From Eledone cirrhosa (taxonomy: Eukaryota), in the NCBI GenBank assembly GCA_964016885.1, contig OZ024743.1:325748001-325812000 (forward strand): a stretch of DNA of 64,000 nucleotides, in the 5' to 3' direction. This document shows, piece after piece, positions 1 to 61,565 of this stretch (the stretch's first letter is position 1; each line of letters opens with the position of its first letter). A program made the position numbers and the translations under genes. Under the pieces are notes generated by a model. The model was not told the DNA's origin and did not search any database. It saw nothing but the letters and a program-made list of their open reading frames with translations.

Positions 1-3000
1 CACTGGTAGTATTGGTGTCAGATAAAATACACTCAGTACACTGGTAGTGTTGGTGTCAGATAAAATACACTCAGTACACTGGTAGTATTGGTGTCAGATA
101 AAATACACTCAGTACACTGGTAGTATTGGTGTCAGATAAAATACACTCAGTACACTGGTAGTATTGGTGTCAGATAAAATACACTCAGTACACTGGTAGT
201 ATTGGTGTCAGATAAAATACACTCAGTACACTGGTAGTATTGGTGTCAGATAAAATACACTCAGTACACTGGTAGTGTTGGTGTCAGATAAAATACACTC
301 AGTACACTGGTAGTATTGGTGTCAGATAAAATACACTCAGTACACTGGTAGTGTTGGTGTCAGATAAAATACACTCAGTACACTGGTAGTATTGGTGTCA
401 GATAAAATACACTCAGTACACTGGTAGTATTGGTGTCAGATAAAATACACTCAGTACACTGGTAGTGTTGGTGTCAGATAAAATACACTCAGTACACTGG
501 TAGTATTGGTGTCAGATAAAATACACTCAGTACACTGGTAGTATTGGTGTCAGATAAAATACACTCAGTACACTGGTAGTATTGGTGTCAGATAAAATAC
601 ACTCAGTACACTGGTAGTATTGGTGTCAGATAAAATACACTCAGTACACTGGTAGTGTTGGTGTCAGATAAAATACACTCAGTATACTGGTAGTGTTGGT
701 GTCAGATAAAATACACTCAGTACACTGGTAGTGTTGGTGTCAGATAAAATACACTCAGTACACTGGTAGTATTGGTGTCAGATAAAATACACTCAGTACA
801 CTGGTAGTATTGGTGTCAGATAAAATACACTCAGTACACTGGTAGTGTTGGTGTCAGATAAAATACACTCAGTACACTGGTAGTGTTGGTGCCAGATAAA
901 ATACACTCAGTACACTGGTAGTATTGGTGTCAGATAAAATACACTCAGTACACTGGTAGTGTTGGTGTCAGATAAAATACACTCAGTACACTGGTAGTGT
1001 TGGTGTCAGATAAAATACACTCAGTACACTGGTGGTGTTGGTGTCAGATAAAATACACTCAGTACACTGGTAGTATTGGTATCAGATAAAATACACTCAG
1101 TACACTGGTAGTATTGGTGTCAGATAAAATACACTCAGTACACTGGTAGTGTTGGTGTCAGATAAAATACACTCAGTACACTGGTAGTATTGGTGTCAGA
1201 TAAAATACACTCAGTACACTGGTAGTATTGGTGTCAGATAAAATACACTCAGTACACTGGTAGTATTGGTGTCAGATAAAATACACTCAGTACACTGGTA
1301 GTGTTGGTGTCAGATAAAATACACTCAGTACACTGGTAGTATTGGTGTCAGATAAAATACACTCAGTACACTGGTAGTATTGGTGTCAGATAAAATACAC
1401 TCAGTACACTGGTAGTGTTGGTGTCAGATAAAATACACTCAGTACACTGGTAGTGTTGGTGCCAGATAAAATACACTCAGTACACTGGTAGTATTGGTGT
1501 CAGATAAAATACACTCAGTACACTGGTAGTGTTGGTGTCAGATAAAATACACTCAGTACACTGGTAGTGTTGGTGTCAGATAAAATACACTCAGTACACT
1601 GGTGGTGTTGGTGTCAGATAAAATACACTCAGTACACTGGTAGTATTGGTATCAGATAAAATACACTCAGTACACTGGTAGTGTTGGTGTCAGATAAAAT
1701 ACACTCAGTATACTGGTAGTGTTGGTGTCAGATAAAATACACTCAGTACACTGGTAGTATTGGTGTCAGATAAAATACACTCAGTACACTGGTAGTATTG
1801 GTGTCAGATAAAATACACTCAGTACACTGGTAGTGTTGGTGTCAGATAAAATACACCCAGTACACTGGTGGTGTTGGTGTCAGATAAAATACACTCAGTA
1901 CACTGGTAGTGTTGGTGTCAGATAAAATACACTCAGTACACTGGTAGTATTGGTGTCAGATAAAATACACTCAGTACACTGGTAGTGTTGGTGTCAGATA
2001 AAATACACTCAGTACACTGGTAGTATTGGTGTCAGATAAAATACACTCAGTACACTGGTAGTATTGGTGTCAGATAAAATACACTCAGTACACTGGTAGT
2101 ATTGGTATCAGATAAAATACACTCAGTACACTGGTAGTGTTGGTGTCAGATAAAATACACTCAGTACACTGGTAGTGTTGGTGTCAGATAAAATACACTC
2201 AGTACACTGGTAGTATTGGTGTCAGATAAAATACACTCAGTACACTGGTAGTATTGGTATCAGATAAAATACACTCAGTACACTGGTAGTGTTGGTGTCA
2301 GATAAAATACACCCAGTACACTGGTAGTGTTGGTGTCAGATAAAATACACCCAGTACACTGGTAGTGTTGGTGTCAGATAAAATACACTCAGTACACTGG
2401 TAGTATTGGTGTCAGATAAAATACACTCAGTACACTGGTAGTGTTGGTGCCATAATGAAATGTATTCAGTACACTGGTAGTGTTGGTGTCAGATAAAATA
2501 CACTCAGTACACTGGTAGTGTTGGTGTCAGATAAAATACACCCAGTACACTGGTAGTGTTGGTGTCAGATAAAATACACTCAGTACACTGGTAGTATTGG
2601 TGTCAGATAAAATACACTCAGTACACTGGTAGTGTTGGTGTCAGATAAAATACACTCAGTACACTGGTAGTGTTGGTGTCAGATAAAATACACCCAGTAC
2701 ACTGGTAGTGTTGGTGTCAGATAAAATACACCCAGTACACTGGTAGTGTTGGTGTCAGATAAAATACACCCAGTACACTGGTAGTGTTGGTGTCAGATAA
2801 AATACACTCAGTACACTGGTAGTATTGGTGTCAGATAAAATACACTCAGTACACTGGTAGTATTGGTATCAGATAAAATACACTCAGTACACTGGTAGTG
2901 TTGGTGTCAGATAAAATACACTCAGTACACTGGTAGTATTGGTGTCAGATAAAATACACTCAGTACACTGGTAGTGTTGGTGTCAGATAAAATACACCCA

Positions 3001-3312
3001 GTACACTGGTAGTGTTGGTGTCAGATAAAATACACCCAGTACACTGGTAGTGTTGGTGTCAGATAAAATACACTCAGTACACTGGTAGTGTTGGTGTCAG
3101 ATAAAATACACCCAGTACACTGGTAGTATTGGTGTCAGATAAAATACACTCAGTACACTGGTAGTGTTGGTGTCAGATAAAATACACCCAGTACACTGGT
3201 AGTGTTGGTGTCAGATAAAATACACTCAGTACACTGGTAGTATTGGTGTCAGATAAAATACACCCAGTACACTGGTAGTGTTGGTGCCATAATGAAATGT
3301 ATTCAGTACACA
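1..3312. repeat. 38-bp minisatellite (CACTGGTAGT[A/G]TTGGTGTCAGATAAAATACACTCAGTA)n, ~87 copies, probably within a GALK2 intron
   Basis: Direct 38-bp periodicity from position 1; the array runs off the window start and ends by running into SINE-like sequence (..CAGTATAAAGTTGTTGACTTTAGGAAGGGC..). Confidence 0.97.
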
Positions 3313-19776: not shown

Positions 19777-20479
19777 TTTGTATATATATATATAATCCTA
19801 GACCTCATTTGCTTAGCGAGTGGGGTGAGCTCGTCAAATTGGACCGAAGAAACAATATTTCTATTGGTCTTTCCAATTGCTAATACTATCTACTGGTTGC
19901 AAATCCAGGCAGCAGAATCAATGTGATATAAAGTGTCTTGCTTAAGGACATAACAAACTCACAACCTCACAATTGCAAATCCAATTCTATAACCACTCAG
20001 CCACGTGCCTTCACATAGAGATGGTTAAAAGAGTTCCAAGTATTTTATTATGCGCATTTCAAAAACAAATATCATCTGCGTTCTCATCAGATAAAATAGG
20101 GAGACATGATATGAAGCTTAAAAAACACTTGTGAGCAGTGAAGTTTTAAATCAACATATGAAAAATAAACTAAGATGGATATATGAGATTGGGAAAAATG
20201 AGGGGGGAGGGGGTAGGAAAAGGTAAGGAAGAGGAAGAAAGAAAAATATATATTATTTATACTCCAGTCCTACAAACTGTAGAGTGCTACTTATCCGATA
20301 TTTGCATTGCTTTATTGTGCTACAATAAAACTCACCTCCTACATTATCTATATATATCATTATGCTCTATATTTTTCCATAATACATTGAACTTTTTCAC
20401 ACTTGATAATGAACAAGTGATATATCAACTCCTATTCATCTCCTACATATATATGCATATATATATATATATATATAAC

Positions 20480-20708
20480 ATTTTCATTTCATTTTTCATT
20501 TCACATCCACTTTTCCCTGCTTGCAAGGGTGGGACGGGAACTGATTCTGGCTTGATTTCTACAGTTGGATGCCCTTCCTAACACCAACCTCATTTACGGT
20601 GAGTGCTGGGTGCTTTTTTGCCGTGGCACCTCCACGACCACTTTGCAGTGGAATGATAGGGACCCCAGTCCCTATCATCTCATTTCTACAGCTGAGTAAA
20701 CTGGAGCA
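20480..20708 (-). mobile_element. CORE-SINE with RTE-like 3' tail, truncated by the retrozyme-like insertion
   Basis: Near-identical to the copies at 35490-35775 and 46668-46995. Confidence 0.8.
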
Positions 20709-20732
20709 AGAGTTGTAACAACAACGAAACTA

Positions 20733-20782
<50 letters not shown>

Positions 20783-21934
20783 TAGTTTCGTTGTTGTTAC
20801 AACTCATCAGCAATATTTACCTATCTACCGGCCTTTCTGGAGAATCGTAAAAGCACATATCGTTATATGCTTTTTCTATGAAAATTAGTAGTGGGCAGAC
20901 TAATTTGCATAGAGTGTGAGTACGTACCGGTTCAACGGAGACGATAAAAACAAATAACGAAACGAAATTAAATTTCGTTTCGTTTGTAACTCACTTTTGT
21001 ATGACTGACGCTTAAACAATTAAGTTAAAAATGTACATCCATATATGTATACTGAAATACTAGTATGCATATGAATACACACACGTATACATATGTAGAT
21101 GTACCAAGTCTTTCACTGGTTACTTTACTGTGAGTATCCAGCTATTCTGTATGTAAACACACAGACAAACCGGTTTTTAGAGTCATACTGGTTTTTGAGG
21201 AAACACCTTTCCTCTATTCTCCAGAAAGCCAGACAAGGAATATTGAACTAGTTTCGTTGTTGTTACAACTCATCAGCAATATTTACCTATCTACCGGCCT
21301 TTCTGGAGAATCGTAAAAGCACATATCGTTATATGCTTTTTCTATGAAAATTAGTAGTGGGCAGACTAATTTGCATAGAGTGTGAGTACGTACCGGTTCA
21401 ACGGAGACGATAAAAACAAATAACGAAACGAAATTAAATTTCGTTTCGTTTGTAACTCACTTTTGTATGACTGACGCTTAAACAATTAAGTTTAAAATGT
21501 ACATCCATATATGTATACTGAAATACTAGTATGCATATGAATACACACACGTATACATATGTAGATGTACCAAGTCTTTCACTGGTTACTTTACTGTGAG
21601 TATCCAGCTATTCTGTATGTAAACACACAGACAAACCGGTTTTTAGAGTCATACTGGTTTTTGAGGAAACACCTTTCCTCTATTCTCCAGTATGACTCTA
21701 AAAACCGGTTTGTCTGTGTGTTTACATACATAATAGCTGGATACTCACAGTAAAGTAACCAGTGAAAGACTTGGTACATCTACATATGTATACGTGTGTG
21801 TATTCATATGCATACTAGTATTTCAGTATACATATATGGATGTACATTTTTAACTTAATTGTTTAAGCGTCAGTCATACAAAAGTGAGTTACAAACGAAA
21901 CGAAATTTAATTTCGTTTCGTTATTTGTTTTTAT
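20709..21934 (-). mobile_element. Non-autonomous hammerhead-bearing tandem element (non-LTR retrozyme-like), 466-bp unit x ~2, with inverted ends
   Basis: Direct repeat starting at 20781 and 21247; no protein-like ORF; a hammerhead at the unit junction; inverted duplications at both ends (20709-20734 and 21687-21934); flanked by (TA)n. Confidence 0.8.
21239..21283 (-). ncRNA. Minimal type I hammerhead ribozyme, intact
   Basis: Minus strand AATATTG-CTGATGA-GTTG taacaa CAAC-GAAA-CTAG-T-T-CAATATT: 7-bp stem I, 4-bp stem II, palindromic stem III (ACTAGT), GUU triplet. Confidence 0.9.
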
Positions 21935-22011
21935 ATATATATATATATAAAATATTAAAAAAATAATGAATAAAACAATGAAACAGTTCCTTATATTAAA
22001 CAAAAAAAGTT

Positions 22012-22162
22012 CATTATTTAACGATCGTTTCTAGGATATATATGTGTTAGAATTGGCATGCATATTCAACAGATCTATGTACAAAATTATACAAAATTAT
22101 ACAAACTATCAAAATTAAATATACATACCAAACACATATATATGCCGTCTTCAGAAATAATG
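22012..22162 (-). ncRNA. Type I hammerhead with long stem II (mirror copy)
   Basis: Reverse complement of 24270-24420. Confidence 0.7.
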
Positions 22163-22678
22163 AAATATATTTATTGATAATAACAACAATTCAAAATTTC
22201 AGGTCTGTTTGGGAACAGAATTCAAATTGACCAATGAAAATACAAAAAAGTTTATGCAGTTAGGTGTGTGTATATACATGTAATTAACTTCGTTCACAGA
22301 TATGCATAAAGATATGTGTTCACATGCATACGCATGCCAAAAAGATGTATGTAAATACAAAAATTCAAGGCTAATGTCTCTGTAAGTTTATAATCTACAG
22401 ATAAAATGCGTATAGATACATAATTATAAAATAAATATATACACACATTCATATACTCACACATATTCGTACACTCACACAACACACGCGCGTATACGCA
22501 TAAACATACACATAACTACGAACATACATAATTTTACATGTTTTTATGTGTGTATGTGTGTATATATGCGTATATGTAAGTGTGTATGTGTGTGTGAGTA
22601 TATATCTATGTCTATGTATGACTATGTATGTGTGTGTATGTATGTGTGTGTGTATGTATGTATGTGTGTATATGTGTG

Positions 22679-22720
<42 letters not shown>

Positions 22721-22818
22721 TTTATTATATGTTGTGTGTGTGTGTATATATCTTTATATATGTGTATGTGTATGTGTGTGTATGTGTGTGTGTGTATATG
22801 TGTATGTGTGTGTATATG

Positions 22819-23007
<189 letters not shown>

Positions 23008-23017
23008 ATGTGTATGC

Positions 23018-23061
<44 letters not shown>

Positions 23062-23130
23062 GTGGGTATGTATGTGTTTGTGTGTATATATATGAGTGTG
23101 TTTATATATATATATATGTGTGTAGATGTG

Positions 23131-23177
<47 letters not shown>

Positions 23178-23246
23178 GTGTGTATATATATATATATGTA
23201 TATATATGTATATATGTGTGTGTGTATATATATACGTGTGTTGTGA

Positions 23247-23283
<37 letters not shown>

Positions 23284-23576
23284 CGTGTATGTGTATATAT
23301 GTGTAAATATATATATATATATATATGTGTGTGTGTATGTGTGTATATGTCTATGTATTTATATGTGTATATATACGTGTCTCTATATGTATGCGTGTGT
23401 GTATGTGTATGTGTATTTATATGGTATGTGTATGTATATGTATGTGTATGTATGTGTTTGTATATATGTGTATGTATATGTATGTATATGTATGTGTGTG
23501 TATGTGTGTGTATATATATGTGTATGTGTATGTATATGTATGTATATCGATGTATATTTTATATTTTATATGTGTC

Positions 23577-23654
<78 letters not shown>

Positions 23655-24269
23655 CTTGATATATTTCTTTTTTCTTTTTCTTTTTCTTTTTCTTTTTCTT
23701 TCCTTTTATTTCTAAGTTTATAGATACATTTATAAATAGGCAGTCTGCTGACACCGTTGAATACTGACCTCCCCCCCCCCCCACCTAATTTCTGTATCTG
23801 GATCTAGATATGTGTGGCAGTGTTTCTGTGCGTGTATTAATCTCCATATGCTTATGATAATAGTATATACACATATATATGTGTGTGGGGGTGTATGTGT
23901 GTATGTATGTTCGTAGTTATGTGTATGTTTATGCGTATACGCGCGTGTGTTGTGTGAGTGTACGAATATGTGTGAGTATATGAATGTGTGTATATATTTA
24001 TTTTATAATTATGTATCTATACGCATTTTATCTGTAGATTATAAACTTACAGAGACATTAGCCTTGAATTTTTGTATTTACATACATCTTTTTGGCATGC
24101 GTATGCATGTGAACACATATCTTTATGCATATCTGTGAACGAAGTTAATTACATGTATATACACACACCTAACTGCATAAACTTTTTTGTATTTTCATTG
24201 GTCAATTTGAATTCTGTTCCCAAACAGACCTGAAATTTTGAATTGTTGTTATTATCAATAAATATATTT

Positions 24270-24420
24270 CATTATTTCTGAAGACGGCATATATATGTGT
24301 TTGGTATGTATATTTAATTTTGATAGTTTGTATAATTTTGTATAATTTTGTACATAGATCTGTTGAATATGCATGCCAATTCTAACACATATATATCCTA
24401 GAAACGATCGTTAAATAATG
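24270..24420 (+). ncRNA. Type I hammerhead with a 116-nt stem II domain
   Basis: CATTATTT-CTGAAGA-[cggcATATATATGTGTT...AACACATATATATccta]-GAAA-CGATCG-T-T-AAATAATG; stem I extends to 10 bp; palindromic stem III. Confidence 0.72.
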
Positions 24421-24619
24421 AACTTTTTTTGTTTAATATAAGGAACTGTTTCATTGTTTTATTCATTATTTTTTTAATATTTTATCTTGACTCTGTATTC
24501 CGTTTATCTTTCACCGAAAGTGATTTTTCATTGCATCTCTTCTTTCCATGATATCCGGATTACATTGAGTTCTTCATACGGATTGGACACTACCGTAAAC
24601 TCTTGGTAGATTTATCTAC

Positions 24620-24715
<96 letters not shown>

Positions 24716-25993
24716 TCAAAAGATGGTTAAAGGAGTTCCATGTATTTTATTATGCGCATTTCAAAAACAAACATCATCATGCAATAATATTTGTGTTTTC
24801 ATCAGATAAAACAGGAGAACATGATATGAAGGCTAAAAAACACTTGTGGATAGTGCAGTTTTAAATCAACATATGAAAAGTGGTTTTAGATTGATGTGTG
24901 ATATTGGGAAAAATATTTTATTTAGAGAGGGGGGGGTGGAAAGGATGAAAAAGGGGAGGAGATGAGAGTGAAGGTGGAGAGGGAGAGATGGGTGATAGAG
25001 AGAAAGAGATAGTTTTTATAACTGAGAGAAGATATATTGTTTTACATAGAGAGGTTGAAAACCGTTGGAAGATAATGTATAAATTAAAAGAATTTGAAAA
25101 TTAACGAAGGGAAAAATATGTACGAGGAAAAAATATTTTATTTAGGGAGGGGGGGTGGAAAGGATGAAAAAAAGGGGAGGAGATGAGAGTGAAGGTGGAG
25201 AGGGAGAGATGGGTGATAGAGAGAAAGAGATAGTTTTTATAACTGAGAAAAGATATATTGTTTTACATAGAGAGGTTGAGAACCGTTGGAAGATAATGTA
25301 TAAATTAAAAGAATTTGAAAATTAACGAAGGGAAAAATATGTACGAGGAAAGAGAGGGAGTTGATATGTATGAAGATAGAGAGAAAAAATAATAATTGCG
25401 GATGAATATTCTAACGTCAAAAGGGTGTATGTTTATAAGTATTGTGGCAATTTCAAAATTAACGAAGAGAAAAAATTATTAAGGTTTGTGTGTAGAAGGA
25501 TTTGAGAAAAATAATGTGAAGTTAAAGTTTGTATATTGAAGGAATTGATAATATGTGCGAAGAAAGAGTTAATATATATTAAAAAATTATTAAGGTTTGT
25601 GTATTAGTTGATTTGAGAAAAATAATGTGAAGTTAAGGTTTGTATATTGAAGGAATTGATAATATGTGCGAAGAAAGAGTTAATATGTATTAAGAATGAG
25701 TTCGTTGATGGGGAGAAAAAAATAATAAATTAAGGATGAAATTGAGATTAAAAAGTTTTATGATAGAGAGAAAAAATAATAATAATTGCGGATGAATATT
25801 CTAACGTCAAAAAAACAAATGTATATGTTATGAAGGATTTTATAAGGTGAAGATAGAATGAGGGTAATGAGTAAACAAGTATTATAGAGTGTATAATGCC
25901 CTTTGAAGTAAGGTAGGAAGATGGGTATATTTTAAAGAGGTGTATGTATATGTGCCTTTGAGAAAAGATTCTAAATTGATAAAGAATTGAATA

Positions 25994-26440
25994 TTAGCTG
26001 TATACTTTGTGAAAAGTCCTATGGAATTTATGCAGGCAGATAGAAAACAAATCTGTACGTCTATTTATTATAGAATCTAGATTAGAGATAATGGTAAATT
26101 TTTCATTTAGGCAGAGATTACAGATTTTAGATAGAGAGCTGTTCAAGTATGAGGACGCAGAAGAAACCTTCTTCCAAAAGGTGGTATATTTAATGTTTTT
26201 GTCTTTCAAGGACCATATGAGTTCTGAGAGAGCCGTGTTGGTTCTTTTAAGTTTGTATTTAAAAGGTGAATGATGATTATAGAGACGAGCTTTAAAAGAG
26301 GTGGAAATGGAGCCAAAATAGGTGAAGGAATTGGTGCTAGTTATAACTTTACATTCATAAATTAAGTTTTTATCAAGACAATGGTTGTTGAGAGGACATT
26401 TATTGTTAATGCGGCAGTTGCAATTAGAGAGATTATTAAT
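25994..26440 (-). mobile_element. Degraded PLE GIY-YIG endonuclease fragment, inverted relative to the adjacent copy
   Basis: The minus strand gives CNCRINNKCPLNNHCLDKNLIYECKV..TYFGSISTSFKARLYNH, then a frameshift to ..CNLCLNEKFTI..NRRTDLFSICLH. Confidence 0.8.
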
Positions 26441-26459
26441 GATTATTAATGATTATAAT

Positions 26460-27269
26460 GATAAGATTATGTACATAGATAATGATAGACAAACTAAACA
26501 AAATAACAACTATTTTAATTACGGCAACAACCTTAACAACTATAATAGAAAGCATTACAATAATTCCAAAAGCCAAAAAAGAAATAGAACTAGGAACATA
26601 ATATGGTTTGCCCCCCCCCCCCCTTTCTCACTAAACATTAAAACCCACATCGCTAAACTATTTTTTAAAGCTCTTGATAATCGCTTCCCTAGAACACATA
26701 GGTATCACTCAATTTTCAATAGACATACTATAAAATTAACCTACTCATCCACCAAAAATTTAGCACAAAATATTAATAGAATAAATAATAGGAACTTAAA
26801 ACCTAGCGATAATAGCATAAATAATATACAAGATAACAAATGTAACTGTAGAGATAGATCTAAATGTCCGTTAAATAACAACTGCTTAGTTAAAAATATA
26901 ATATACAATTGTAATGTTAAAACTGACTCTAATTCTTTTAACTACGTCGGTTCCACATCGACGGAATTTAAACTTCGCTATAATAACCACAAGAATTCTT
27001 TCACAGATCCAAGCAAAAAATCTTCAACAGCACTATCAGGCGTACTCTGGCAACTTAGGCAAGATAACGTTAGATATTCGACGGCTTGGAATATAGCCTC
27101 AAGAGGGATTCCTTTTAATTCATCCTCTGAGACATGTGACCTCTGCGCAGAGGAGATATTCTTTATACTAAAATCTAAAAATTCCCTTAATCTACGGACA
27201 AATTTATTCAGTTGCTGCAAACATAGATTAAACTCAACTTTTAAATATAAATTTAAATTTAAAATGTAG
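26460..27269 (+). mobile_element. 5'-truncated Penelope-like element ORF (linker plus GIY-YIG endonuclease; possibly Naiad-type)
   Basis: RNIIWFAPP..FPRTHRYHSIFNRHTIKLTYS..CNCRDRSKCPLNNNC..IIYNC..NYVGSTSTEFKLRYNNH..CDLCAEE..CCKH; no RT domain present. Confidence 0.85.
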
Positions 27270-28612
27270 TATATTTAGTTTGATTTATAATTATTTGGGA
27301 AACTAGCCGATAAATCTTTCGATTTCTTCTTTTTATTCTTCTTTTTATTTTTATTTTTATTTTTATTTAAACATTCTTCATGAAAATTAAACTACCCTAA
27401 AAGGTGATGCTCCAAATATTTCGAATAAACGTTACACTAGATAAACTTCTATATTAAATATAAGAACATATGTAGACCAAATGGGCATCCTAAACTTTTT
27501 GAAATGATTTTTGCTAGACGCGATTTGATAAATAATTTTTAGCTTTATCTGTTTTCGACTCTGATGCTTATAATGAACTTGGCAATATATTGTCAATTAA
27601 TTTTGAAGGGTTGATCTTTGTGGTCGATTTGCGTGGCATATTATGTTTCTATTATGTTTTTATTTTTATTATTGTAATATTTTCTAATATTTTTATTTTT
27701 AATATGTAATATTTTTTAGTTTTCTATTTTATTATTATTTATTATTATTATTATTATTATTTTTTGTTTTTGTTTCTGATATTTTTTATTAATATATTGA
27801 AATCTGTTCTCTATTTCTGCTTGATAGATAATCATGTAGAGTAAAGACAAGATTAGTATTGTTAAAATTAATATAGACTCTATATATATGTGTATATATA
27901 TACACATATATGTATACTTAAATTTTTATAGCACAATGAGAATGTTCTCCGTGTGAAATAGGGGTTTGCAGAGTTGATCACGTAAATTCACATCGATGTT
28001 TGTAGTTATCATATAAATATATGAATTTTTAAAACTAAACATAAGATCATTACTTTTCACACATTATGGATACGTGTCTCATTCAGGAATACTGATATTT
28101 ACATTATAGTGCCTGGTTTTTATACGTACTAATATTTCTACATTAAAACATAGGGTTTTTAAATTATGCCTCGCCTATGTCTGGTTACTTTTCATTTTTC
28201 TCTCTATATAACGGCTGGTTTCTTTCCTAACCACATATATCTCCCTTACATTAATACTAGAGCTAAATAAATATATAAATAAATAAATGTATCATTGATA
28301 CGTTCATTCAACGGATGTCCAACTACCTACTTTTCTCTATATATATCTATCTCTATCTATTTCCTCTCTCTATATATATCTCTCTCTGTTTCCTTACATG
28401 AAGTTCTTCTCTTTATCTATCTTTCCATCTCTCTATTTTGTTGCATGCATTTCTTCTTTTTCTTCTTTTTCTTCGTTTTCTTTCTTTCTTTCCTTCTTTC
28501 GCTCTTTCTTTCTTTCTGTTTACAATTTTTCACTGCCAAATCAACTTTTTCAAATACAAGTCGATGTTGAACGGTATGTCAAATCTATTTATCTATAAAA
28601 CTGTCTATATTG

Positions 28613-28678
28613 TATTTTGTCTGAGGAAGGCATAACATATTGTTAATATGATATCCCTGAAATATATATAATGAAATA
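28613..28678 (+). ncRNA. Type I hammerhead in the presumed 3' pLTR of the upstream PLE
   Basis: TATTTTGT-CTGAGGA-AGG...CCT-GAAA-TATATA-TA-ATGAAATA; 8-bp stem I (2 G-U pairs), AUA triplet. Confidence 0.65.
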
Positions 28679-28805
28679 AATATGGTTTTATAAATATAGT
28701 TTCCATTTATTTAATATCGTAAATATACTCCAAATACTTGTTGAGTGCTTTTATATCAGTTATAAATATTTACTAGTTGTAACCCAACAATTTAAATATA
28801 ACTTT

Positions 28806-29590
<785 letters not shown>

Positions 29591-29918: not shown

Positions 29919-32861
29919 ACGTAGTTTAGAAAGCCACAACAATGCAGAGGGAAATCTCGAGGTAGGAAGTGAATGATAGATAAGAGAAATAGGAGAAAGT
30001 GAAAATAGAGAGAGACAAAGATGAAAACAAAACAAACGTAGAAGGGTTACCGTAGTGGAGATTTAATCCCAATATTTCGGGCTCACGCCCATCAACGGGG
30101 GAAAGTTCCGAAGGGGGGGGAACAGGCTAAGCGGAGAAAGTTGTGATGTCGTTAAAACAGGAATGCCGTTATGGGGAGAAAAATTATTTAAAATTTAAAT
30201 GAGGGAAAGAATGCGCGTGCGCGTGATAGGCTGTGGCAAAAGCTACAGACCAAATGGGTTAAATCAAGAGGGTGCGCTAGCGTGTGAAAGCCGTAAAATA
30301 TGTGTGTGTAAATATTTATGTGTGTGTAACTGTGTGTGTATATGTGTAAGTGTGTATATGTGTGAGTGTGTGTGTGTGAAAGATAGTGGGCTGTAGAAGC
30401 TGGAAATCATAGGGTGTGAAAGGTGGTAGGTTGTAAAACATGTGTGCGTGTATAAACATGTGTGTGTGTAAGCGTATGGGTATACATGTGTGTGTAACTG
30501 TGTGTGTGTATGTGTGAGTGCGTGTGTGTGTGAAAGATAGTGGGCTGTAGAAGCTGGAAATCAAAGGGTGTGAAAGGTGGTAGGTTGTAAAACATGTGTG
30601 CGTGTATAAATATAGATGTGTATGTGTATGCGTATGGGTATGCATATACGTGCGTGTGTGTGAAAATAGCAGGCCGTAAGGGCTGTGAATGGTCACTATG
30701 GTTAAGTTAGCCATGTCAGCTCATTACTCTCAGCCCGGTTGTTAAGTGGGGGTCTGAGGTTCTTAATAACAAGTGCTTCCTTTATCCTTAAGGATCCGAT
30801 GCTGCGTTCAGTCGCTAGGACTGTGACCAAGGGTCTACCCTGTGGGTTTCCGCATTTAAGGACGTGTTTACGGAAGGAAGATGCGTTGGTGTTGATATGT
30901 TCCTTGATACGAACATGTAGGGGTCGGATGGTGCTACCTATGTAAAACTTGTTACATTTATCGCATTGAATCTTATATACGACATAGGTGCGTAGGCAAT
31001 CTGCCCCCCGTATCGGGCAGTTGCTGAGGGAACACGTCCCATCTGACTCGTCGGGTTTGTTGGAGAGGCATCTTCGCAGCGAAGGTCCTGTGTGGGCCAA
31101 ATGTATGTCAAGTCCCTCCGTCCGTATGGCCCTGCGGATGGCGTTCGTGGTATATTCACTCAGGTGGGGGATTTTAAAGAAGCACCTGCTTTTATTTGAG
31201 TTTCTAGTGGGTGTCTGTCTATTGGGTCTGGGGTCTCTAATTCCGTTAATCAGTCGCTTGGGATATCCATTAGACCTGAGTAGATTACGGAATTGTGTGG
31301 TATGGGTGAGACCACCCATCGGGTCGCTGCATCTGTTAGTGATACGTGTCAGTTCATTTAGGACATAGCCTCTCTTAGCGTTGTTGGGGAGGGCTGAGTT
31401 GTAATGCACAAATAAGTCCTTGCACGCTGCTTTGCGGTAGAAGGTGGTGTTTATGTCTCCTTCTTCCGAGATGTTGATACGGAAGTCGAGGAGGGCGAGT
31501 GACCCGTCTTCTCCTGGGTGTTCGATGGTGAAATCGACGTGATGGTCAGTATCGTTGAAGATTTGGTGAATTTCATTCGCCATCTCCCGGGAAGAAGTAA
31601 GTATCAGGATGTCATCAACGTATCTGGAGTAGAAGGCGACGGCGTTGGGTTGGCAGGTATTGAGTGCCTTGCGTTCCAGGTGGTCCATGTACGAGATCGC
31701 AAGTATGCCGGACAGACTAGAGCCCATAGGTAGCCCAGAGATTTGTTTGTACGTGTGGCCGAGGAAATTGAAGAGTGCATTATCCACAACGAAGGAGAGG
31801 AGTTGGTGGATGTCCGTGTGTGTGAGTCCGAAGCAGTGTAAGTTAGATGCTCGGACTCGTTCGGTCAACAGGTCGACGGCTGGGGATGCTGGTACGGAGG
31901 TATAAAGGGCGACCACACCAAGACTGAAGGCATAACCGTTGTCCTTTCTGGTGCTGGGCGCCAGATGGTGTAGTCGCTCCAAGACCTCCTTTGAGCTGCA
32001 GACGTGGGCTGGTAGTGTGTGTAGAATAGGTTTCAGTAGTGTGGAGAGCAGCCACGATATTTTGTAGAGTGGGCCCTCCACGCTAGAGACAATGGGCCTG
32101 ATTTTCAAATCGGGTCCTTGTTTATGTGTTTTAACCAGGTGGTAGAAGGTGGGTAGTTTGCTGTTTCGAGTCATTATGTTGTTTTTTACCTTCTTTGGCA
32201 GTTTTCGTTGGACACAGATGTTAGTCCATATGGTGTTAATGCCTTCCTCGATTAAAGTCGAGGAGGTCCCTGTGACTTTCGAGTAGAGGCTGTGGTCATT
32301 AAGATGTTGGAGAGCCAAGTTGTTGTAGGTCTCTCTCGAGATGACACAGAATTCTTTCCCCTTGTCAGAGGGAAGGTACACAAGGTTCCTGGATCTTAGG
32401 TTGGTGAGAGTGTTGAATTGTGCATTGGTGAGGTTGCGTTTATTGTGTGTGTGTGTTGGGAAAAGATGCTAGAGATAGAATGTTTCAACCTGAGTAGTTT
32501 AGTGTCAAGTTCGTGGTTGGTGGGTGGGGGTGGAGTGGGTTGTCGAGGTGGTACGTGGGGAGTGTGGGGTGGGTTGTGGGGTTGTAATCGATCTCGGTGT
32601 TGTTGTTTTGGATGGCGGTTAGCCATTTCAGTTGATATGCTGTCCGACAGAAGTTGGTTTCGATGTCGAGTTTCAGTCTATCATCGAGACGCTGTGTAAT
32701 GATGAACTTGGGTCCGAGGCGCAGAAGTTCGAGTTCGTCGTTGGTGAGGGTACCGGTTAGGTCAGTAACGAGGTGTGAAGCATCGTTGGTAGGTAGATCG
32801 ATGTTGGGGGGTGTAGCGGAGGGTGTTGTATAGCTGTTGCCCCTGGTGTGGTTGCAGTCGG

Positions 32862-38349: not shown

Positions 38350-38578
38350 TTCTCTCGGCAGTAGTATATTGAAAGAATTGTAGTAGTTATATTGTTTTTT
38401 ATTTGAAAGTATTGTTACAAAGGTTGTTAGTTGTTAGGGATATTAGTGTTGGATTAAATTCTTTCATATTTATTCTGGCTGACTATGTTATGAGTTTAAA
38501 TCTTGCTGAGGTCAACATTGCCTTTTATCCTTTCAAGGTTGATAAACAAAGTATCAGTCCCATGTTTGAGGCAATTAT

Positions 38579-38616
<38 letters not shown>

Positions 38617-38655
38617 TTTCTCCCTGTCTCTCCCCGTCTGCCCATCAATCTATCT

Positions 38656-41033
38656 GCGTCTCTCGAACACGGACGCCGAGTTCTGCGATAGACCAATCAC
38701 GGAGACTGAGATACGGGACGCTCTGGATCGCTGTGGGAAACGCAAATCACCCGGTTTAGATGGTCTACCCTATGAGTTTTACATAGGCAAGCCGGACATG
38801 TTCTCTGGCGTCCTCGAAGCCGTCTACTGCAATTGGCAGCAGAACGGGAGAATTCCCAGTGCTGCAGGCAAGGACATAATAACGCTGATCAGGAAAGACG
38901 AGAACAAGGGGGACGAAATTAACAACTTCAGGCCCATAACTCTGCTCAACACAGAGTTAAAGATTTTGGCCAAGGTGCTAGCGACGAGGTTGGCACTTGT
39001 CGTCGAGAACCTGGTAGGGAAAGCGCAAACATGTGCAATCCCAACCAGGTCCATACACGACAACCTCCACCTCATGCGATACATCATAGAGAGGGTGGGT
39101 AGTAAACCCGGCTTCGGTGGGGCTCTGATCAATTTGGATCAGTCTAAGGCATTCGATAGGATCAACCGTCGATGCTTGGAAATGGTTCTCAAGGCGGCCG
39201 GTTTCGGACCTGTGTTCAGAGGCTGGATCGAGGCGATGCACACCAGCATTTTCTCGAGGGTCAAGGTGAACGGCTACCTATCGGAGCCATTCGCAATCAC
39301 GCGTTCCATTCGACAGGGGTGCCTTCTCTCCTCCATTCTGTATGTATTGACTCTAGAACCACTACTGCAGAAATTGGAGCTGTTGCAGGGACTGCGCAAA
39401 GCGGCGTCGGCTTATACCGACGACGTGACAGTAATGATGTCGAGCACCTCGGAAATCGGGGTGATCGGCAACTTACTGAAAGAATACGAAACGCTGACGG
39501 GAGCAAAACTAAACCCGGACAAGTCTGTTGGTTTGCAACTCGGTACGTGGAGAGCAAACTGATGACGTCCGACAGCGTCGTTGGACGCTGGACGGACGGA
39601 CTGGTGAAATTGCTCGGAGTCTGGTTCGGTCCAGAACTCCAGGTGGAGAAAAACTGGAATGAGGTTACGGCCAAGGTGTTTGCACTCACCCAGAAGTAGG
39701 CAGAGTGCAAACTGTCCTTGAAAGGTCGAGCGGAGGTGGCGAACACTTTCATAGCGTCCGTCATCTACTACCGCTTGACTGTCGTGCCTTGTCCCCGTGA
39801 ACACCTCTCCAAGATGAAATGCATGCTCTTCCAGTTTCTGTGGAAGAAGCAGGCTCCGCTGGTGAGGAGATTCGTCTGCTGTCAGCACCCTTCCAACGGA
39901 GGGCTGGGAATGCCGTGGCTGATGATGCCCAAACATGCGCTGAGGCTGCGGCATCTCCAGGTATTCCTCACCGACCCCCAACCGGTGTGGGCACCGTTTG
40001 TGAGACAGGCTTTCCCACAGCTCATCTCGCTGACGGAGCTGCAGTCCTGGGTCAAGAAAAAACTGAAAACGATGGGCGCCTGGCACATTGAGTGCGCTCA
40101 GGCGCTCACAGTCCTCTGGCAAGCGGGCGCAGCAATCAGTGGAGACTCCACTTCGACATTCTATAGAGGGATTGTACGTTACAAGGGCGACGACGTGCTC
40201 GGAGAGACTCTGGGCGTCGAAGACGATGAGCTCACCAGTCTGTTTGGTAGGACTTTCCACCCGGGACCTATGGACAACTTCCAGAGGTCCCTGGTCTGGC
40301 AGTGCTACCAAGGTGCTCTACCGGTTTGTGACAAGATCTATAGGCACGGACGCCCTGGCAGGGATCCTTCCAAGAGGACGTGTCCAAGATGCGCGCAGGA
40401 CATTGAAACAGTCCTGCACACAATTGTACAGTGCCTGGGCGTAACCGACCTGTGGAACTATGCAGAACAACTGCTGTCGCGTATGGGACAAATCCAGTTG
40501 ACTGCCGAGTCCATAGTAAGGATCAAACCACCAGCCTCTTTCAAAAACGAAAGAGAGGCGGTTTTCCTCTGTACGGTGGCTATGGTGAAAGAAGTTATAT
40601 GGTGGACGAGGTTGAGAGGACTGAGGACAGATGCCTTTCTCTCCGGACAACAATTGATTCCCTTCTTTAAGTATCACTTTAGAAGGAGAATCAGGGTGGA
40701 GAGAGAGGCACTGCACCCCAGTAAATTTACTGAAAGGTGGGTGAATGAAGCAAAAATGGCCCGAGTGATTGGGCCTTCTCTGTTTATAAGCCTGTAGGTT
40801 GAAGAAGAGAGCAAAAGGAAGAAAGGAGCACTTGCACAACACGCTCCTGCAGTTGAGGGTTGTTCTATCGACGGGGTATTAAACAACCCATTTGTGGCGC
40901 TTCCCCCCTATTGGGGATTTCGATTGTTGTAATTGTTTGTTTTTATATTTTTTACACGACTGTATGTAAAATCCCCGGCATGTCTTTGTATTATCCCCTT
41001 TTCTTGTGCGCCCTTGTGGCTAATAAAGAAATA

Positions 41034-53619: not shown

Positions 53620-56600
53620 AGAGTGGTACTGTTTGAGTAAAGAGATGAACTAGAGTGTTGTGGTACTGTTGGAGTAGTGTGATGAACTAGAGTGTTGTGG
53701 GACTGCTGAAGTAGAGTGATGAACTAGAGTGTTGTGGTACTGTTGGAGTAGAGAGATGAACTAGAGTGTTGTGGTACTACTGGAGTAGAGAGATGAACTA
53801 GAGTGTTGTGGGACTGCTGAAGTAGAGAGATGAACTACAGTGTTGTGGGACTGCTGAAGTAGAGAGATGAACTAGAGTGTTGTGGGACTGCTGGAGTAGA
53901 GAGATGAACTAGAGTGTTGTGGGACTGTTGAACTAGAGTGTTGTGGTACTGTTGGAGTAGTGTGATGAACTACAGTGTTGTGGGACTGTTGGAGTAGTGT
54001 GATGAACTAGAGTGTTGTGGGACTGCTGAAGTAGAGTGATGAACTAGAGTGTTGTGGTACTGTTGGAGTAGAGAGATGAACTAGAGTGTTGTGAGACTGC
54101 TTGAGTAGAGAGATGAACTAGAGTGTTGTGGTACTACTGGAGTAGAGAGATGAACTAGAGTGTTGTGGGACTGCTGAAGTAGAGAGATGAACTACAGTGT
54201 TGTGGGACTGCTGAAGTAGAGAGATGAACTAGAGTGTTGTGGGACTGCTGGAGTAGAGAGATGAACTAGAGTGTTGTGGGACTGTTGAACTAGAGTGTTG
54301 TGGTACTGTTGGAGTAGTGTGATGAACTACAGTGTTGTGGGACTGTTGGAGTAGTGTGATGAACTAGAGTGTTGTGGGACTGCTGAAGTAGAGTGATGAA
54401 CTAGAGTGTTGTGGTACTGTTGGAGTAGAGAGATGAACTAGAGTGTTGTGAGACTGCTTGAGTAGAGAGATGAACTAGAGTGTTGTGGGACTGCTGGAGT
54501 AGAGAGATGAACTAGAGTGTTGTGGGACTGTTGAACTAGAGTGTTGTGGTACTGTTGGAGTAGAAAGATGAACTACAGTGTTGTGGTACTGTTGGAGTAG
54601 TGTGATGAACTACAGTGTTGTGGGACTGTTGGAGTAGTGTGATGAACTAGAGTGTTGTGGGACTGCTGAAGTAGAGTGATGAACTAGAGTGTTGTGATAC
54701 TGTTGGAGTAGAGAGATGAACTAGAGTGTTGTGAGACTGCTTGAGTAGAGTGATGAACTAGAGTGTTGTATGACTGTTGGAGTAGAGAGATGAACTGGAG
54801 TCTTGTGGGACTCCTGAAGTAGAGTGATGAACTAGAGTGTTGTGGTACTACTGGAGTAGAGTGATGAACTACAGTGTTGTGGGACTGCTGGAGTAGAGTG
54901 ATGAACTAGAGTGTTGTGGGACTGCTGGAGTAGAGAGATGAACTACAGTGTTGTGGGACTGCTGGACTAGAGTGATGAACTAGAGTGTTGTGGGACTGCT
55001 GGAGTAGAGAGATGAACTAGAGTGTTGTGGGACTGCTGGAGTAGAGAGATGAACTAGAGTGTTGTGGGATGGCTGAAGTAGAGTGATGAACTAGAGTGTT
55101 GTGGGATTGCTGAAGTAGAGTGATGAACTAGAGTGTTGTGGTACTGCTGGAGTAGAGTGATGAACTAGAGTGTTGTGGGACAGTTGGAGTAGAGTGATGA
55201 ACTAGAGTGTTGTGGGACTGCTGGAGTAGAGAGATGAACTACAGTGTTGTGGGACTGCTGGACTAGAGTGATGAACTAGAGTGTTGTGGGACTTCTGGAG
55301 TAGAGAGATGAACTAGAGTGTTGTGGGACTGCTGGAGTAGAGAGATGAACTAGAGTGTTGTGGTACTGCTGGAGTAGAGTGATGAACTAGAGTGTTGTGG
55401 GACAGTTGGAGTAGAGAGATGAACTAGAGTGTTGTGGGATGGCTGAAGTAGAGTGATGAATTGTAGTGTTGTGGTACTACTGGAGTAGAGTGATGAACTA
55501 CAGTGTTGTGGGACTGCTGGAATAGAGAGATGAACTAGAGTGTTGTGGGACTGCTGGAGTAGAGTGATGAACTAGAGTGTTGTGGGACTGTTGGAGTAGA
55601 GGGATGAACTAGAGTGTTGTGTGAATGTTGGAGTAGAGAGATGAACTAGAGTGTTGTGGGACTGCTGAAGTAGAGTGATGAACTAGAGTGTTGTGGTACT
55701 GCTGGAGTAGAGTGATGAACTAGAGTGTTGTGGGACTGCTGGAGTAGAGAGATGAACTAGAGTGTTGTGGGACTGTTGGAGTAGAGTGATGAACTAGAGT
55801 GTTGTGGGATTGCTGAAGTAGAGAGATGAACTAGAGTGTTGTGGGATTTCTGAAGTAGAGAGATGAACTAGAGTGTTGTGGTACTTCTTAATTAGAGTGA
55901 TGAACTAGAGTGTTGTGGTACTGCTGGAGGAGAGTGATGAACTAGAGTGTTGTGGGACTGCTGGAGTAGAGTGATGAACTACAGTGTTGTGGGACTGCTG
56001 GAGTAGAGTGATGAACTACAGTGTTGTGGGATTGCTGGAGTAGAGAGATGAACTAGAGTGTTGTGGGACTGCTGGAGTAGAGAGATGAACAGGGGTGTTG
56101 TGGGACTGCTGAAGTAGAGTGATGAACTAGAGTGTTGTGGGACTGCTGGAGTAGAGTGATGAACTAGAGTGTTGTGGGACTGCTTGAGTAGAGAGATGAA
56201 CTAGAGTGTTGTGGGACTGCTGGAGTAGAGAGATGAACAGGGGTGTTGTGGGACTGCTGAAGTAGAGTGATGAACTAGAGTGTTGTGGGACTGCTGGAGT
56301 AGAGTGATGAACTAAAGTGTTGTAGGACTGCTTGAGTAGAGAGATGAACTAGAGTGTTGTGGGACTGCTGGAGTAGAGTGATGAACTAGAGTTTTGTGGG
56401 ACTGCTGGAGTAGAGAGATGAACTACAGTGTTGTGGGACTGCTGGAGTAGAGAGATGGACTAGAGTGTTGTGGGACTGCTGGAGTAGAGTGATGAACTAG
56501 AGTGTTGTGGGACAGTTGGAGTAGAGGGATGAACTAGAGTGTTGTGTGAATGTTGGAGTAGAGAGATGAACTAGAGTGTTGTGGGACTGCTGAAGTAGAG

Positions 56601-59600: not shown

Positions 59601-61565
59601 AGTGATGAACTAGAGTGTTCTGGTACTGTTGGAGTAGAGAGATGAACTAGAGTGTTGTGGTACTGTTGGAGTAGAGAGATGAACTAGAGTGTTGTGGGAC
59701 TGCTGAAGTAGAGTGATGAACTAGAGTGTTGTGGGACTGCTGGAGTAGAGAGATGAACTACAGTGTTGTGGGACTGCTGGGGTAGAGAGATGAACTAGAG
59801 TGTTGTGGGACTGCTGGAGTAGAGAGATGAACTGGAGTGTTGTGGGACTGCTGAAGTAGAGTGATGAACTAGAGTGTTGTGGGACTGCTGGAGTAGAGTG
59901 ATGAACTAGAGTGTTGTAGGACTGCTTGAGTTGAGAGATGAACTAGAGTGTTGTGGGACTGCTGGAGTAGAGTGATGAACTAGAGTGTTGTGGGACTGCT
60001 GGCATAGAGAGATGAACTACAGTGTTGTGGGACTGCTGGAGTAGAGAGATGAACTAGAGTGTTGTGGGACTGCTGGAGTAGAGATATGAACTGGAGTGTT
60101 GTGGGACTGCTGGAGTAGAGTGATGAACTAGAGTCTAGTGGGACTGCTGGAGTAGAGAGATGAACTACAGTGTTGTGGGACTGCTGGACTAGAGTAATGA
60201 ACTAGAGTGTTGTGGGACTGCTGGAGTAGAGAGATGAACTAGAGTGTTGTGGGACTGCTGAAGTAGAGAGATGAACTACAGTGTTGTGGTACTGCTGGAG
60301 TAGAGAGATGAACTAGAGTGTTGTGGGACTGCTGGAGTAGAGAGATGAACTAGAGTGTTGTGGGACTGCTGAAGTAGAGTGATGAACTAGAGTGTTGTGG
60401 GACTGCTGAAGTAGAGTGATGAACTACAGTGTTGTGGTACTGCTGGAGTAGAGAGATGAACTAGATTGTTGTGGGACTGCTGCAGTAGAGAGATGAACTT
60501 GAGTGTTGTGGGATGGCTGAAGTAGAGTGATGAACTAGAGTCTTGTGGGATTGCTGAAGTAGAGTGATGAACTAGAGTGTTGTGGTACTACTTAAGTAGA
60601 GATATGAACTAGAGTGTTGTGGGACTGCTGGAGTAGAGTGATGAATTAGAGTGTTGTGGGATTGCTGAAGTAGAGTGATGAACTGGAGTGTTGTGGTACT
60701 GCTGGAGTAGAGTGATGAACTAGAGTGTTGTGGGACTGCTGGAGTAGAGAGATGAACTAGAGTGTTGTGGGACTGCTGAAGTAGAGAGATGAACTACAGT
60801 GTTGTGGTACTGCTGGAGTAGAGAGATGAACTAGAGTGTTGTGGGACTGCTGGAGTAGAGAGATGAACTAGAGTGTTGTGGGATGGCTGAAGTAGAGTGA
60901 TGAACTAGAGTGTTGTGGGATTGCTGAAGTAGAGTGATGAACTAGAGTGTTGTGGTACTACTGGAGTAGAGAGATGAACTAGAGTGTTGTGGGATTGCTG
61001 AAGTAGAGAGATGAACTGGAGTGTTGTGGTACTGCTGAAGTAGAGTGATGAACTACAGTGTTGTAGGACTGCTTGAGTAGAGAGATGAACTAGAGTGTTG
61101 TGGGACTGCTGGAGTAGAGTGATGAACTAGAGTTTTGTGGGACTGCTGGAGTAGAGAGATGAACTACAGTGTTGTGGGACTGCTGGAGTAGAGAGATGAA
61201 CTGGAGTGTTGTGGGACTGCTGGAGTAGAGTGATGAACTAGAGTGTTGTGGGACTGCTGGAGTAGAGTGATGAACTAGAGTGTTGTGGGACTGCTGGAGT
61301 AGAGTGATGAACTAAAGTGTTGTGGGAAGGCTGAAGTAGAGAGATGAACTACAGTGTTGTGGGACTGCTGGAGTAGGAAGATGAACTAGTGTGTTGTGGG
61401 ATGGCTGAAGTAGAGAGATGAACTAGAGTGTTGTGGGACGGCTGAAGTAGAGAGATGAACTAGAGTGTTGTGGGACTGCTGGAGTAGAGTGATGAACTAG
61501 AGTGTTGTGGGACTGCTGGAGTAGAGTGATGAACTAGTGCGTTGTCATACTGATGAAGTAGTGAT
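53620..61565. repeat. 37-bp minisatellite (GATGAACTAGAGTGTTGTGGGACTGCTGGAGTAGAGA)n, ~215 copies
   Basis: Direct periodicity over ~7.9 kb, starting ~150 bp after the sulfotransferase polyA signal. Confidence 0.97.

What the first reader, a model, noticed from the sequence alone, without database searches (positions are those of the whole stretch)
20709..21934. 466-bp tandem retrozyme-like element whose genomic end coincides with its hammerhead cleavage site
Seen: a non-coding 466-bp unit is repeated about twice, with an intact minimal type I hammerhead on the minus strand at the junction (21239-21283). The distal copy stops at GAAACTAGT and runs into (AT)n, within 1 nt of the predicted cleavage site, and lacks the 3' strand of stem I. 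The unit has several internal hairpins, e.g. AACGAAACGAAATT/AATTTCGTTTCGTT and CTATG-AAAATTAGT/ACTAATTT-GCATAG. Established: metazoan non-LTR retrozymes are tandem non-coding repeats with minimal hammerheads that have palindromic stem III, cleave as dimers, yield circular RNAs, and are thought to be mobilised by Penelope-like elements. Inference: this is a cephalopod retrozyme family copied from a self-cleaved or circular RNA by the PLE machinery found next to it.
Basis: partly seen in the sequence, partly recalled or inferred. Interest (0 to 1): 0.85.

Follow-up and report, generated by a model that had tools for sequence, protein, structure and literature searches.

The report
Ribozyme repeat copied by Penelope machinery
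This is one of thousands of copies of a 466-base non-coding repeat with a predicted self-cutting RNA motif, likely spread by Penelope-type jumping genes; its copies end at two fixed internal points, one used at each end, and the end at the ribozyme cut site that drew attention is a one-off.

Summary
The 466-bp unit, the hammerhead (21239-21283, minus strand) and the left end 1 nt short of the predicted cut are real. That end is not a family feature: this window is the only place with (TA)n at unit position 1, against 2,045 exact junctions at position 164 and about 1,200 at 233-238. The window's own right end is at 164. Of 93 insertions read, 67 are two head-to-head arms. Each pairs a 'tailed' (164) with a 'tailless' (233-238) end, and none pairs like with like. 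The two arms share private variants (0.5% apart, against 4.1% between loci), and inner breakpoints ignore the cut site (KS p=0.83). This is the Penelope-like (PLE) tail and two-start signature. Active Hydra-clade PLEs in this genome show the same pairing (4 of 4). Verdict: a non-LTR retrozyme family, likely mobilised by PLE enzymes through internal priming on uncut or re-ligated RNA. It is a known kind, but gives countable evidence for a coupled two-site mechanism. No partner PLE was identified; cleavage and circular RNA are untested. The scan noted PLE-derived hammerhead repeats in two other genomes.

The parts
20500..20709 (+). Left part of an abundant SINE-like repeat, cut off at the insertion; its normal continuation is missing on both sides of the element
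   Evidence: other window copies continue past this point; loose ends at 20709 in four runs show the normal continuation.
20710..20734 (-). 25-nt inverted copy of unit positions 25 to 1; likely a snap-back repair product around the (TA)n
   Evidence: perfect palindrome 20710-20805. A similar fold-back around (TA)n is seen at locus L064.
20734..20781 (.). (TA)24 target tract at the left end
20781..21690 (-). Arm A: 1.95 head-to-tail units (U1-466, U1-444). The RNA sense is the minus strand. The outer end is aberrant, at U1 instead of U233-238.
21239..21283 (-). Complete type I hammerhead; predicted cut between 21246 and 21245 (GUU triplet)
20781..20817 (-). Distal hammerhead lacking the 3' strand of stem I (predicted inactive)
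20944..21018 (-). 'Tail' of the unit, between the family's two fixed ends (U164 = 20944; U233/U238 = 21013/21018). It holds the 13-bp hairpin at 20956-20984.
21687..21934 (+). Arm B: inverted, 5'-truncated copy (U411 to U164) with the standard tailed end; joined head-to-head to arm A over a 4-nt microhomology (21687-21690)
21935..21947 (.). (TA)7 at the right end, shared with the next, unrelated two-armed element

Best explanation
The unit is a non-coding hammerhead repeat (non-LTR retrozyme) whose copies sit in (TA)n as two head-to-head arms, one ending at unit position 164 and the other at 233-238, and it is likely copied in trans by a Penelope-like reverse transcriptase/GIY-YIG enzyme, most likely of the Hydra clade. 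Inferred steps: the enzyme, probably a dimer, cuts both strands of a (TA)n tract. Each 3' end, ending in A, pairs with a U inside the element RNA, one at each side of a 70-75-nt tail. Both cDNAs are made from the same template and run through the hammerhead site for up to about 31 units. They stop at random points and are joined to each other. The ribozyme does not set either end. Its likely role is upstream: cutting tandem transcripts into monomers that are re-ligated to circles and then copied by rolling-circle reverse transcription (about 0.55; an uncut linear concatemer is the alternative). The window copy is a young insertion with a normal tailed arm and a one-off left end at the cut site. 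That end is more likely chance plus repair (about 0.6) than priming on a ribozyme-cut RNA end (about 0.4).
For: Exact genome counts: 2,045 junctions at U164, 0 for the reversed control; 588 non-redundant reverse-strand junctions at U233-238; 5,217 hammerhead cores; 2 matches at U1, both in this window. Of 93 insertions, 67 were tailed+tailless, 20 single-armed, 2 had an aberrant end, 4 were unresolved, and 0 were like-with-like. From anchored samples, 31 of 31 and 11 of 11 resolved pairs were complementary, p=2e-13 against independent 50:50 choice (tallied by hand). In 28 loci anchored only on the hammerhead, ends were 26 tailed, 21 tailless, 1 aberrant, 1 unresolved, 0 at the cut. An independent run shows loose ends at 20944, 21013 and 21018 (12, 4 and 2 contigs). 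Arms of one insertion differ by a median 0.53% (46 pairs), against 4.1% between loci. Between-arm divergence does not differ detectably from within-arm (0.64 vs 0.53%, p=0.38, n=41). The 136 inner breakpoints are uniform (KS p=0.83; 2 at the cut against 1.75 expected). A 420-bp sister family, 64% identical, ends at the homologous positions. An autonomous 739-aa PLE with the Hydra motifs has at least 20 intact frames among 150 matches and pairs tailed with tailless ends in 4 of 4 loci. In vitro, an anole PLE starts at two internal sites that bound the tail and does not need hammerhead cleavage (PMC11167929).
Against: No autonomous PLE with ends homologous to the unit was found, so the partner and its clade are inferred from target and anatomy only. 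In the sister family, 8 of 10 resolved two-armed loci follow the rule, 1 is tailed at both ends (L159) and 1 has an aberrant end. L212 has tailless outer ends on both sides and was scored unresolved because it looks like two fused insertions. Seven of the 67 pairs have a second arm of 22 nt or less, four of them called by eye. Samples come mostly from contig C1 and from exact-pattern anchors. Some arrays have higher-order periods of 2-6 units, which a monomer circle does not give. The anole enzyme showed no strand difference in start site in vitro. Three family junctions lie within 2 nt of the cut, against 0 of 6 matches at one control position, so a slight excess is not excluded.
Confidence: 0.85

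Rival explanations
1. One reading: the family is copied from the 3' end of a ribozyme-cleaved RNA, so genomic ends coincide with the cut site.
For: The window's left end is 1 nt short of the cut and fits the A-to-U priming rule. Weak priming at the template's 3' end was seen in vitro (PMC11167929).
Against: It holds for 1 locus against more than 3,000 junctions elsewhere. The two other near-site junctions (L073, L081) keep the first base beyond the cut, which a cleaved RNA would lack. Most arms run through the site, and inner ends show no pile-up there. The window's end also carries a snap-back copy and a deleted flank, which are signs of repair. As an account of this one end it remains possible (about 0.4).
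Confidence: 0.04
2. The unit is only the terminal repeat (pLTR) of an autonomous PLE, and the arrays are truncated PLE ends expanded in place, with no RNA life of their own.
For: The end anatomy is the same as that of autonomous PLEs. Higher-order repeats in some arrays. PLE-derived repeats of this kind are proposed in bioRxiv 10.64898/2026.07.22.740005.
Against: In the loci read, arms continue unit after unit across the position where an ORF would lie. PLE protein hits fall in neighbouring insertions. Multi-unit arms with fixed ends occur at dispersed loci, and both arms share variants. No ORF-bearing relative appeared among 30+30+20 loci of sister families. An ancestral origin from a pLTR is still likely.
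Confidence: 0.08
3. A Helitron or Helentron-like DNA element, or a satellite spread by recombination.
For: CTAG|T at the window's left end; internal hairpins and a microsatellite-like core.
Against: Family ends are not CTRR. Two inverted arms with random inner truncation and a conserved hammerhead are not Helitron features (from recall). Fixed ends in (TA)n at thousands of sites do not fit unequal crossing-over.
Confidence: 0.03

Closest known systems
Metazoan non-LTR retrozymes (Cervera and de la Pena 2020, PMC7229834, passages read; Li, Clavereau and Pollet, bioRxiv 10.64898/2026.07.22.740005, parts 1-3 of 5 read)
   Same: Tandem, low-GC (35%), non-coding unit with a type I hammerhead in every unit and a short palindromic stem III. 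Strongly self-paired (circular MFE -150 kcal/mol, z -9.6 on 40 shuffles). About 5,000 motifs, as in mussel. PLE mobilisation is proposed there.
   Different: The unit is a little longer (466 nt, against about 170-400). Those papers infer PLE mobilisation from co-occurrence and pLTR homology. In the passages read they do not describe fixed paired ends or inverted arms ('inverted' occurs 0 times in PMC7229834). Cleavage and circles were not shown here.
Insertion units of EN+ Penelope-like elements: tail and inverted 5'-truncated arm (Arkhipova 2013, PMC3846280, passages; Craig 2021, PMC8557442, passages and sections 10-11; Frangieh 2024, PMC11167929, parts 1-3 of 4)
   Same: Head-to-head inverted arms, a tail at one end, two internal RT start sites bounding the tail, an AT-rich target, and hammerhead cleavage dispensable.
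   Different: No ORF. The tail is 70-75 nt rather than 30-40. The papers say the tail is 'often' or 'optionally' at one end; here the pairing is 67 of 67 among pairs with two standard ends. Arms are arrays of up to about 31 units.
Non-autonomous Chlamys elements such as MRC1 (PMC8557442 section 10)
   Same: Non-autonomous PLE derivatives with multicopy head-to-tail insertions.
   Different: They are algal, from a clade that mostly lacks hammerheads, and resemble their autonomous partners at the 3' end. No such resemblance was found here.
Hydra-clade PLEs (PMC8557442 section 11)
   Same: (TA)n target and canonical hammerheads. An active family in this genome carries RWR, DKT, CxCx5C, CxxC and CxH and shows the same end pairing.
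   Different: It is autonomous, its tail is 86 nt, and it has no nucleotide homology to the unit beyond a 19-nt microsatellite-like match. It is a candidate mobiliser only.

Membership tests
Non-LTR retrozyme | Type I hammerhead in each repeat unit | tested here: met
   Core intact in 316 of 328 copies; compensatory pairs; Rfam HH9 E 3.9e-7, below gathering
Non-LTR retrozyme | Short head-to-tail tandem unit, low GC, non-coding | tested here: met
   466 bp, GC 35%; no frame of 120 aa or more over the element; arrays of 1 to about 31 units
Non-LTR retrozyme | Highly self-paired monomer | tested here: met
   Predicted only: 66% paired, z -9.6; an extended stem I closes the monomer
Non-LTR retrozyme | Self-cleavage (monomer or dimer) | not testable with these tools
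   Bench assay needed. The GUU triplet in 245 of 328 copies (GUC in 82) and the 2-bp stem III predict weak, dimer-dependent cleavage (recalled; PMC4209133 passages)
Non-LTR retrozyme | Expressed as a circular RNA | not testable with these tools
   No read-level RNA data were available
EN+ Penelope-like insertion signature | Inverted, 5'-truncated second arm joined head-to-head | tested here: met
   73 of 93 insertions have a second arm; 20 are single-armed
EN+ Penelope-like insertion signature | Two fixed 3' ends bounding a tail, with the tail on one arm | tested here: met
   tail 70-75 nt
EN+ Penelope-like insertion signature | Microsatellite / (TA)n target | tested here: met
   rare (ATG)n and (ATT)n targets (L083, L090)
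Autonomous Penelope-like element | RT plus GIY-YIG ORF between pLTRs | tested here: not met
   No ORF inside arms in the loci read; not filed as autonomous
Non-autonomous derivative of a named PLE | Ends homologous to an autonomous family | tested here: inconclusive
   None found; only fetched loci and the first 100 rows of pattern searches were examined
Helitron | Fixed 3' CTRR end | tested here: not met
   1 locus against more than 3,000 ends elsewhere
Hydra-clade PLE (neighbour at 26454-28809) | RW[K/R], DKT, CxCX5C linker, CxxC and CxH, short ORF, (TA)n target | tested here: met
   Motifs in the full copy L132 against the description; no tree was built

The most novel reading that the evidence does not exclude
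An asymmetric PLE enzyme dimer loads on one circular retrozyme RNA and primes both strands of a cut (TA)n site, obligately at two different staggered start sites. It then copies the circle by rolling-circle reverse transcription in both directions, so that kilobase tandem arrays are born in one step as head-to-head palindromes. This would give animal retrozymes a defined mobilisation mechanism and a Hydra-clade driver. It would also turn the PLE 'tail at one end' into a strict coupling rule that the one in vitro system did not show.
Probability: 0.4. Interest if true: 0.7.

Novelty: new member of a known kind. Interest (0 to 1): 0.45.

Why it matters
How animal retrozymes are copied, and why PLE insertions are tailed palindromes, are both open in the papers read. 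This young, ORF-free family offers thousands of insertions and a 466-nt minimal substrate. It shows that the ribozyme site sets neither end, that the two target strands use different start sites, and that both arms come from one template. Those three constraints can be tested directly with a Hydra-clade protein from the same genome.

Tried and rejected
End at the cut site as a family rule: rejected. Pile-up of inner ends at the cut site, suspected by eye: not found (8 of 136 within U456-U13, against 7.0 expected). The 584-bp inverted repeat at 21947-24485 as a rearrangement caused by this insertion: rejected; it is a separate hammerhead-bearing two-armed element with the same ends at other loci. 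The neighbouring PLEs first taken for Neptune: reassigned to Hydra by motifs. Pfam gave no hit on that protein; the ESM Atlas gave GIY-YIG and RVT-bearing eukaryotic clusters at 0.96-0.98. Search for the autonomous partner by sister-family DNA, by hammerhead pattern, by shared tail motif and by a profile over masked loci: only further non-coding relatives were found. Test for two separate templates per insertion: no arm-fixed sites in 41 loci; it does not separate a circle from a homogeneous linear concatemer. Energy of the monomer hammerhead with its 2-nt loop: the folding program does not allow it. Expression: no RNA holder listed. A relative's raw DNA reads laid 0 reads. No contig of four runs crossed the window's left junction, which is uninformative on whether the junction is real or private to this individual. 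The miRNA matches are (TA)n artefacts. Pyatkov 2004 (PMC522041) is not held. Literature searches listed no paper on cephalopod retrozymes or on a strict end-pairing rule. Subscription papers such as Evgen'ev and Arkhipova 2005 and Arkhipova 2006 are not in the library, and no supplements were read; either may already describe the rule or these families.

Full report
1. Observation. Tandem Repeats Finder gives a 466-bp period at 20781-21690. Calling 20781-21246 the unit U, the locus reads: truncated SINE-like repeat (to 20709), inverted U25-U1 (20710-20734), (TA)24, U1-466, U1-444, inverted U411-U164 (21687-21934), (TA)7. The minus strand at 21239-21283 is a complete type I hammerhead with a 7-bp stem I, a 5-bp stem II, a palindromic 2-bp stem III and a GUU triplet. 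The distal motif stops 1 nt before the predicted cut.

2. The family. The unit has near-identical copies on many contigs (217 matches from 39 scored of 546 candidates) and 5,217 exact hammerhead cores. The core is intact in 316 of 328 copies in fetched loci; position 17 is U in 245, C in 82 and A in 1. Stem II shows a U-A to A-U switch between subfamilies, and sister families change further pairs in both stems. The unit folds far better than shuffles (z -9.6). Sister non-coding families of 420-480 bp exist. A tail motif shared by the clan abuts (TA)n 11,048 times, against 22 for the control.

3. Where copies end. (TA)n joined to U1 occurs twice, both times at this locus. A looser pattern gave 7 places: 2 in the window, 2 other family loci that keep one base beyond the cut, and 3 unrelated. 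A control position gave 6 matches, none in the family. (TA)n joined to U164 occurs 2,045 times. For U233-238 there are 588 reverse-strand matches; forward matches overlap, so about 1,200 in total is an inference. Contigs of an independent run have loose ends at the same three positions; none is listed at the cut, with 34 rows not shown. In the sister family V the ends fall at the aligned positions V148 and V204-208.

4. Pairing. I read 93 insertions: 22 top-identity loci, 40 anchored on the tailed junction, 13 more anchored on the hammerhead, 14 anchored on the tailless junction and 4 picked as long; one duplicate, L063, was dropped. Of these, 67 pair a tailed with a tailless end, 20 are single-armed, 2 have an aberrant end (the window and L087), 4 are unresolved, and none is like-with-like (a hand tally). 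Against a strict rule: L159 in family V is tailed at both ends, L212 is ambiguous, and seven second arms are 22 nt or shorter. Both arms of an insertion come from one template source: 0.53% apart against 4.1% between loci, and no more different than units within an arm. L049 has 21 pieces with no shared variable site while differing from U at 14. Inner ends, hand-listed, are uniform over the unit.

5. Mechanism. Shown: fixed paired outer ends in (TA)n, random inner ends, read-through of the hammerhead site, one template source. From the literature: PLE insertions have an inverted truncated arm and a 30-40-bp tail, often at one end (PMC8557442; PMC3846280). The anole Poseidon protein cuts both strands, is predicted to be a dimer, starts reverse transcription at two internal sites that bound the tail, and does not need hammerhead cleavage (PMC11167929). 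Inferred: a PLE dimer primes both strands on one RNA, each at its own site. Circles are favoured by long homogeneous arrays at dispersed young loci and by the lack of any preferred 5' end, and they were proposed before (PMC4209133; PMC7229834). Higher-order periods of 2-6 units in some arrays need multimeric templates or later duplication, so the circle stays at about 0.55.

6. Partner. The window holds Hydra-clade PLE fragments at 24712-28809 and a Poseidon-like RT-GIY-YIG frame at 30702-32468; the Poseidon label is from recall. The first family has at least 20 intact frames of 736 aa or more among 150 best matches, the Hydra motifs, and tailed+tailless pairing in 4 of 4 loci. It shares no real homology with U. 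Hydra is therefore the likely clade by target and anatomy, but no partner family is identified.

7. The window's left end. It should be tailless (U233-238) but lies at U1. It also carries a snap-back copy and has lost the SINE's right part. With about 2% aberrant ends (1 of 49 in the hammerhead-anchored set), roughly one hit at this position genome-wide is compatible with chance; this is my estimate. Priming on a cut RNA end remains possible for this one event.

8. Verdict. This is a new family of a known kind (non-LTR retrozyme) that works like a non-autonomous PLE. The residual interest lies in the countable pairing rule and the single-template result, which I did not find in eight library searches; older subscription papers and supplements were not seen.

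Noticed in passing
window 21947-24619: A second two-armed head-to-head element (arms 100% identical over 584 nt, 134-nt tail, (TA)n at both ends). It has a type I hammerhead with a roughly 115-nt stem II and a palindromic stem III at about 24268-24422 (+). The same two ends occur at L084, L130 and L143.
   Followed up: partly
window 24712-28809: Two different Hydra-like PLE families (roughly 40% protein identity) are joined head-to-head at about 26442-26454 without (TA)n, one apparently tailless and one tailed. This may be a single insertion made from two different RNAs, which would run against the one-template result, or it may be two events.
   Followed up: partly
G000, e.g. L132-L135: A large, recently active Hydra-clade PLE family (739-aa ORF, many intact copies at 95-99% identity, 86-nt tail) that Pfam does not detect.
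   Followed up: partly
L136-L194, L216-L235: Sister retrozyme families of 420-480 bp with the same stem III and tail hairpin. Several have a mismatched first pair of stem II (U-U or C-A). There are 1,699 matches for one hammerhead pattern and 11,048 tailed junctions for the clan.
   Followed up: partly
L094, L097, L099, L036: Higher-order repeats of 2, 3, 4 and 6 units inside single arms.
   Followed up: no
L064 600-760; window 20710-20805: Snap-back inverted copies of 25-38 nt centred on (TA)n at insertion ends.
   Followed up: partly
L160 about 1500: A sister-family copy whose outer end lies within a few bases of its hammerhead cut, joined without (TA)n to the upstream region of a Hydra-like ORF.
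   Followed up: no
window 20021-20360: An older copy (about 80%) of the hammerhead-bearing PLE end that is also at 24712-24914.
   Followed up: no
window 1-3286 and 53623-61545; 38570-40797: Long 38-bp and 37-bp minisatellite arrays, and a decayed non-LTR RT element (Pfam RVT_1).
   Followed up: no
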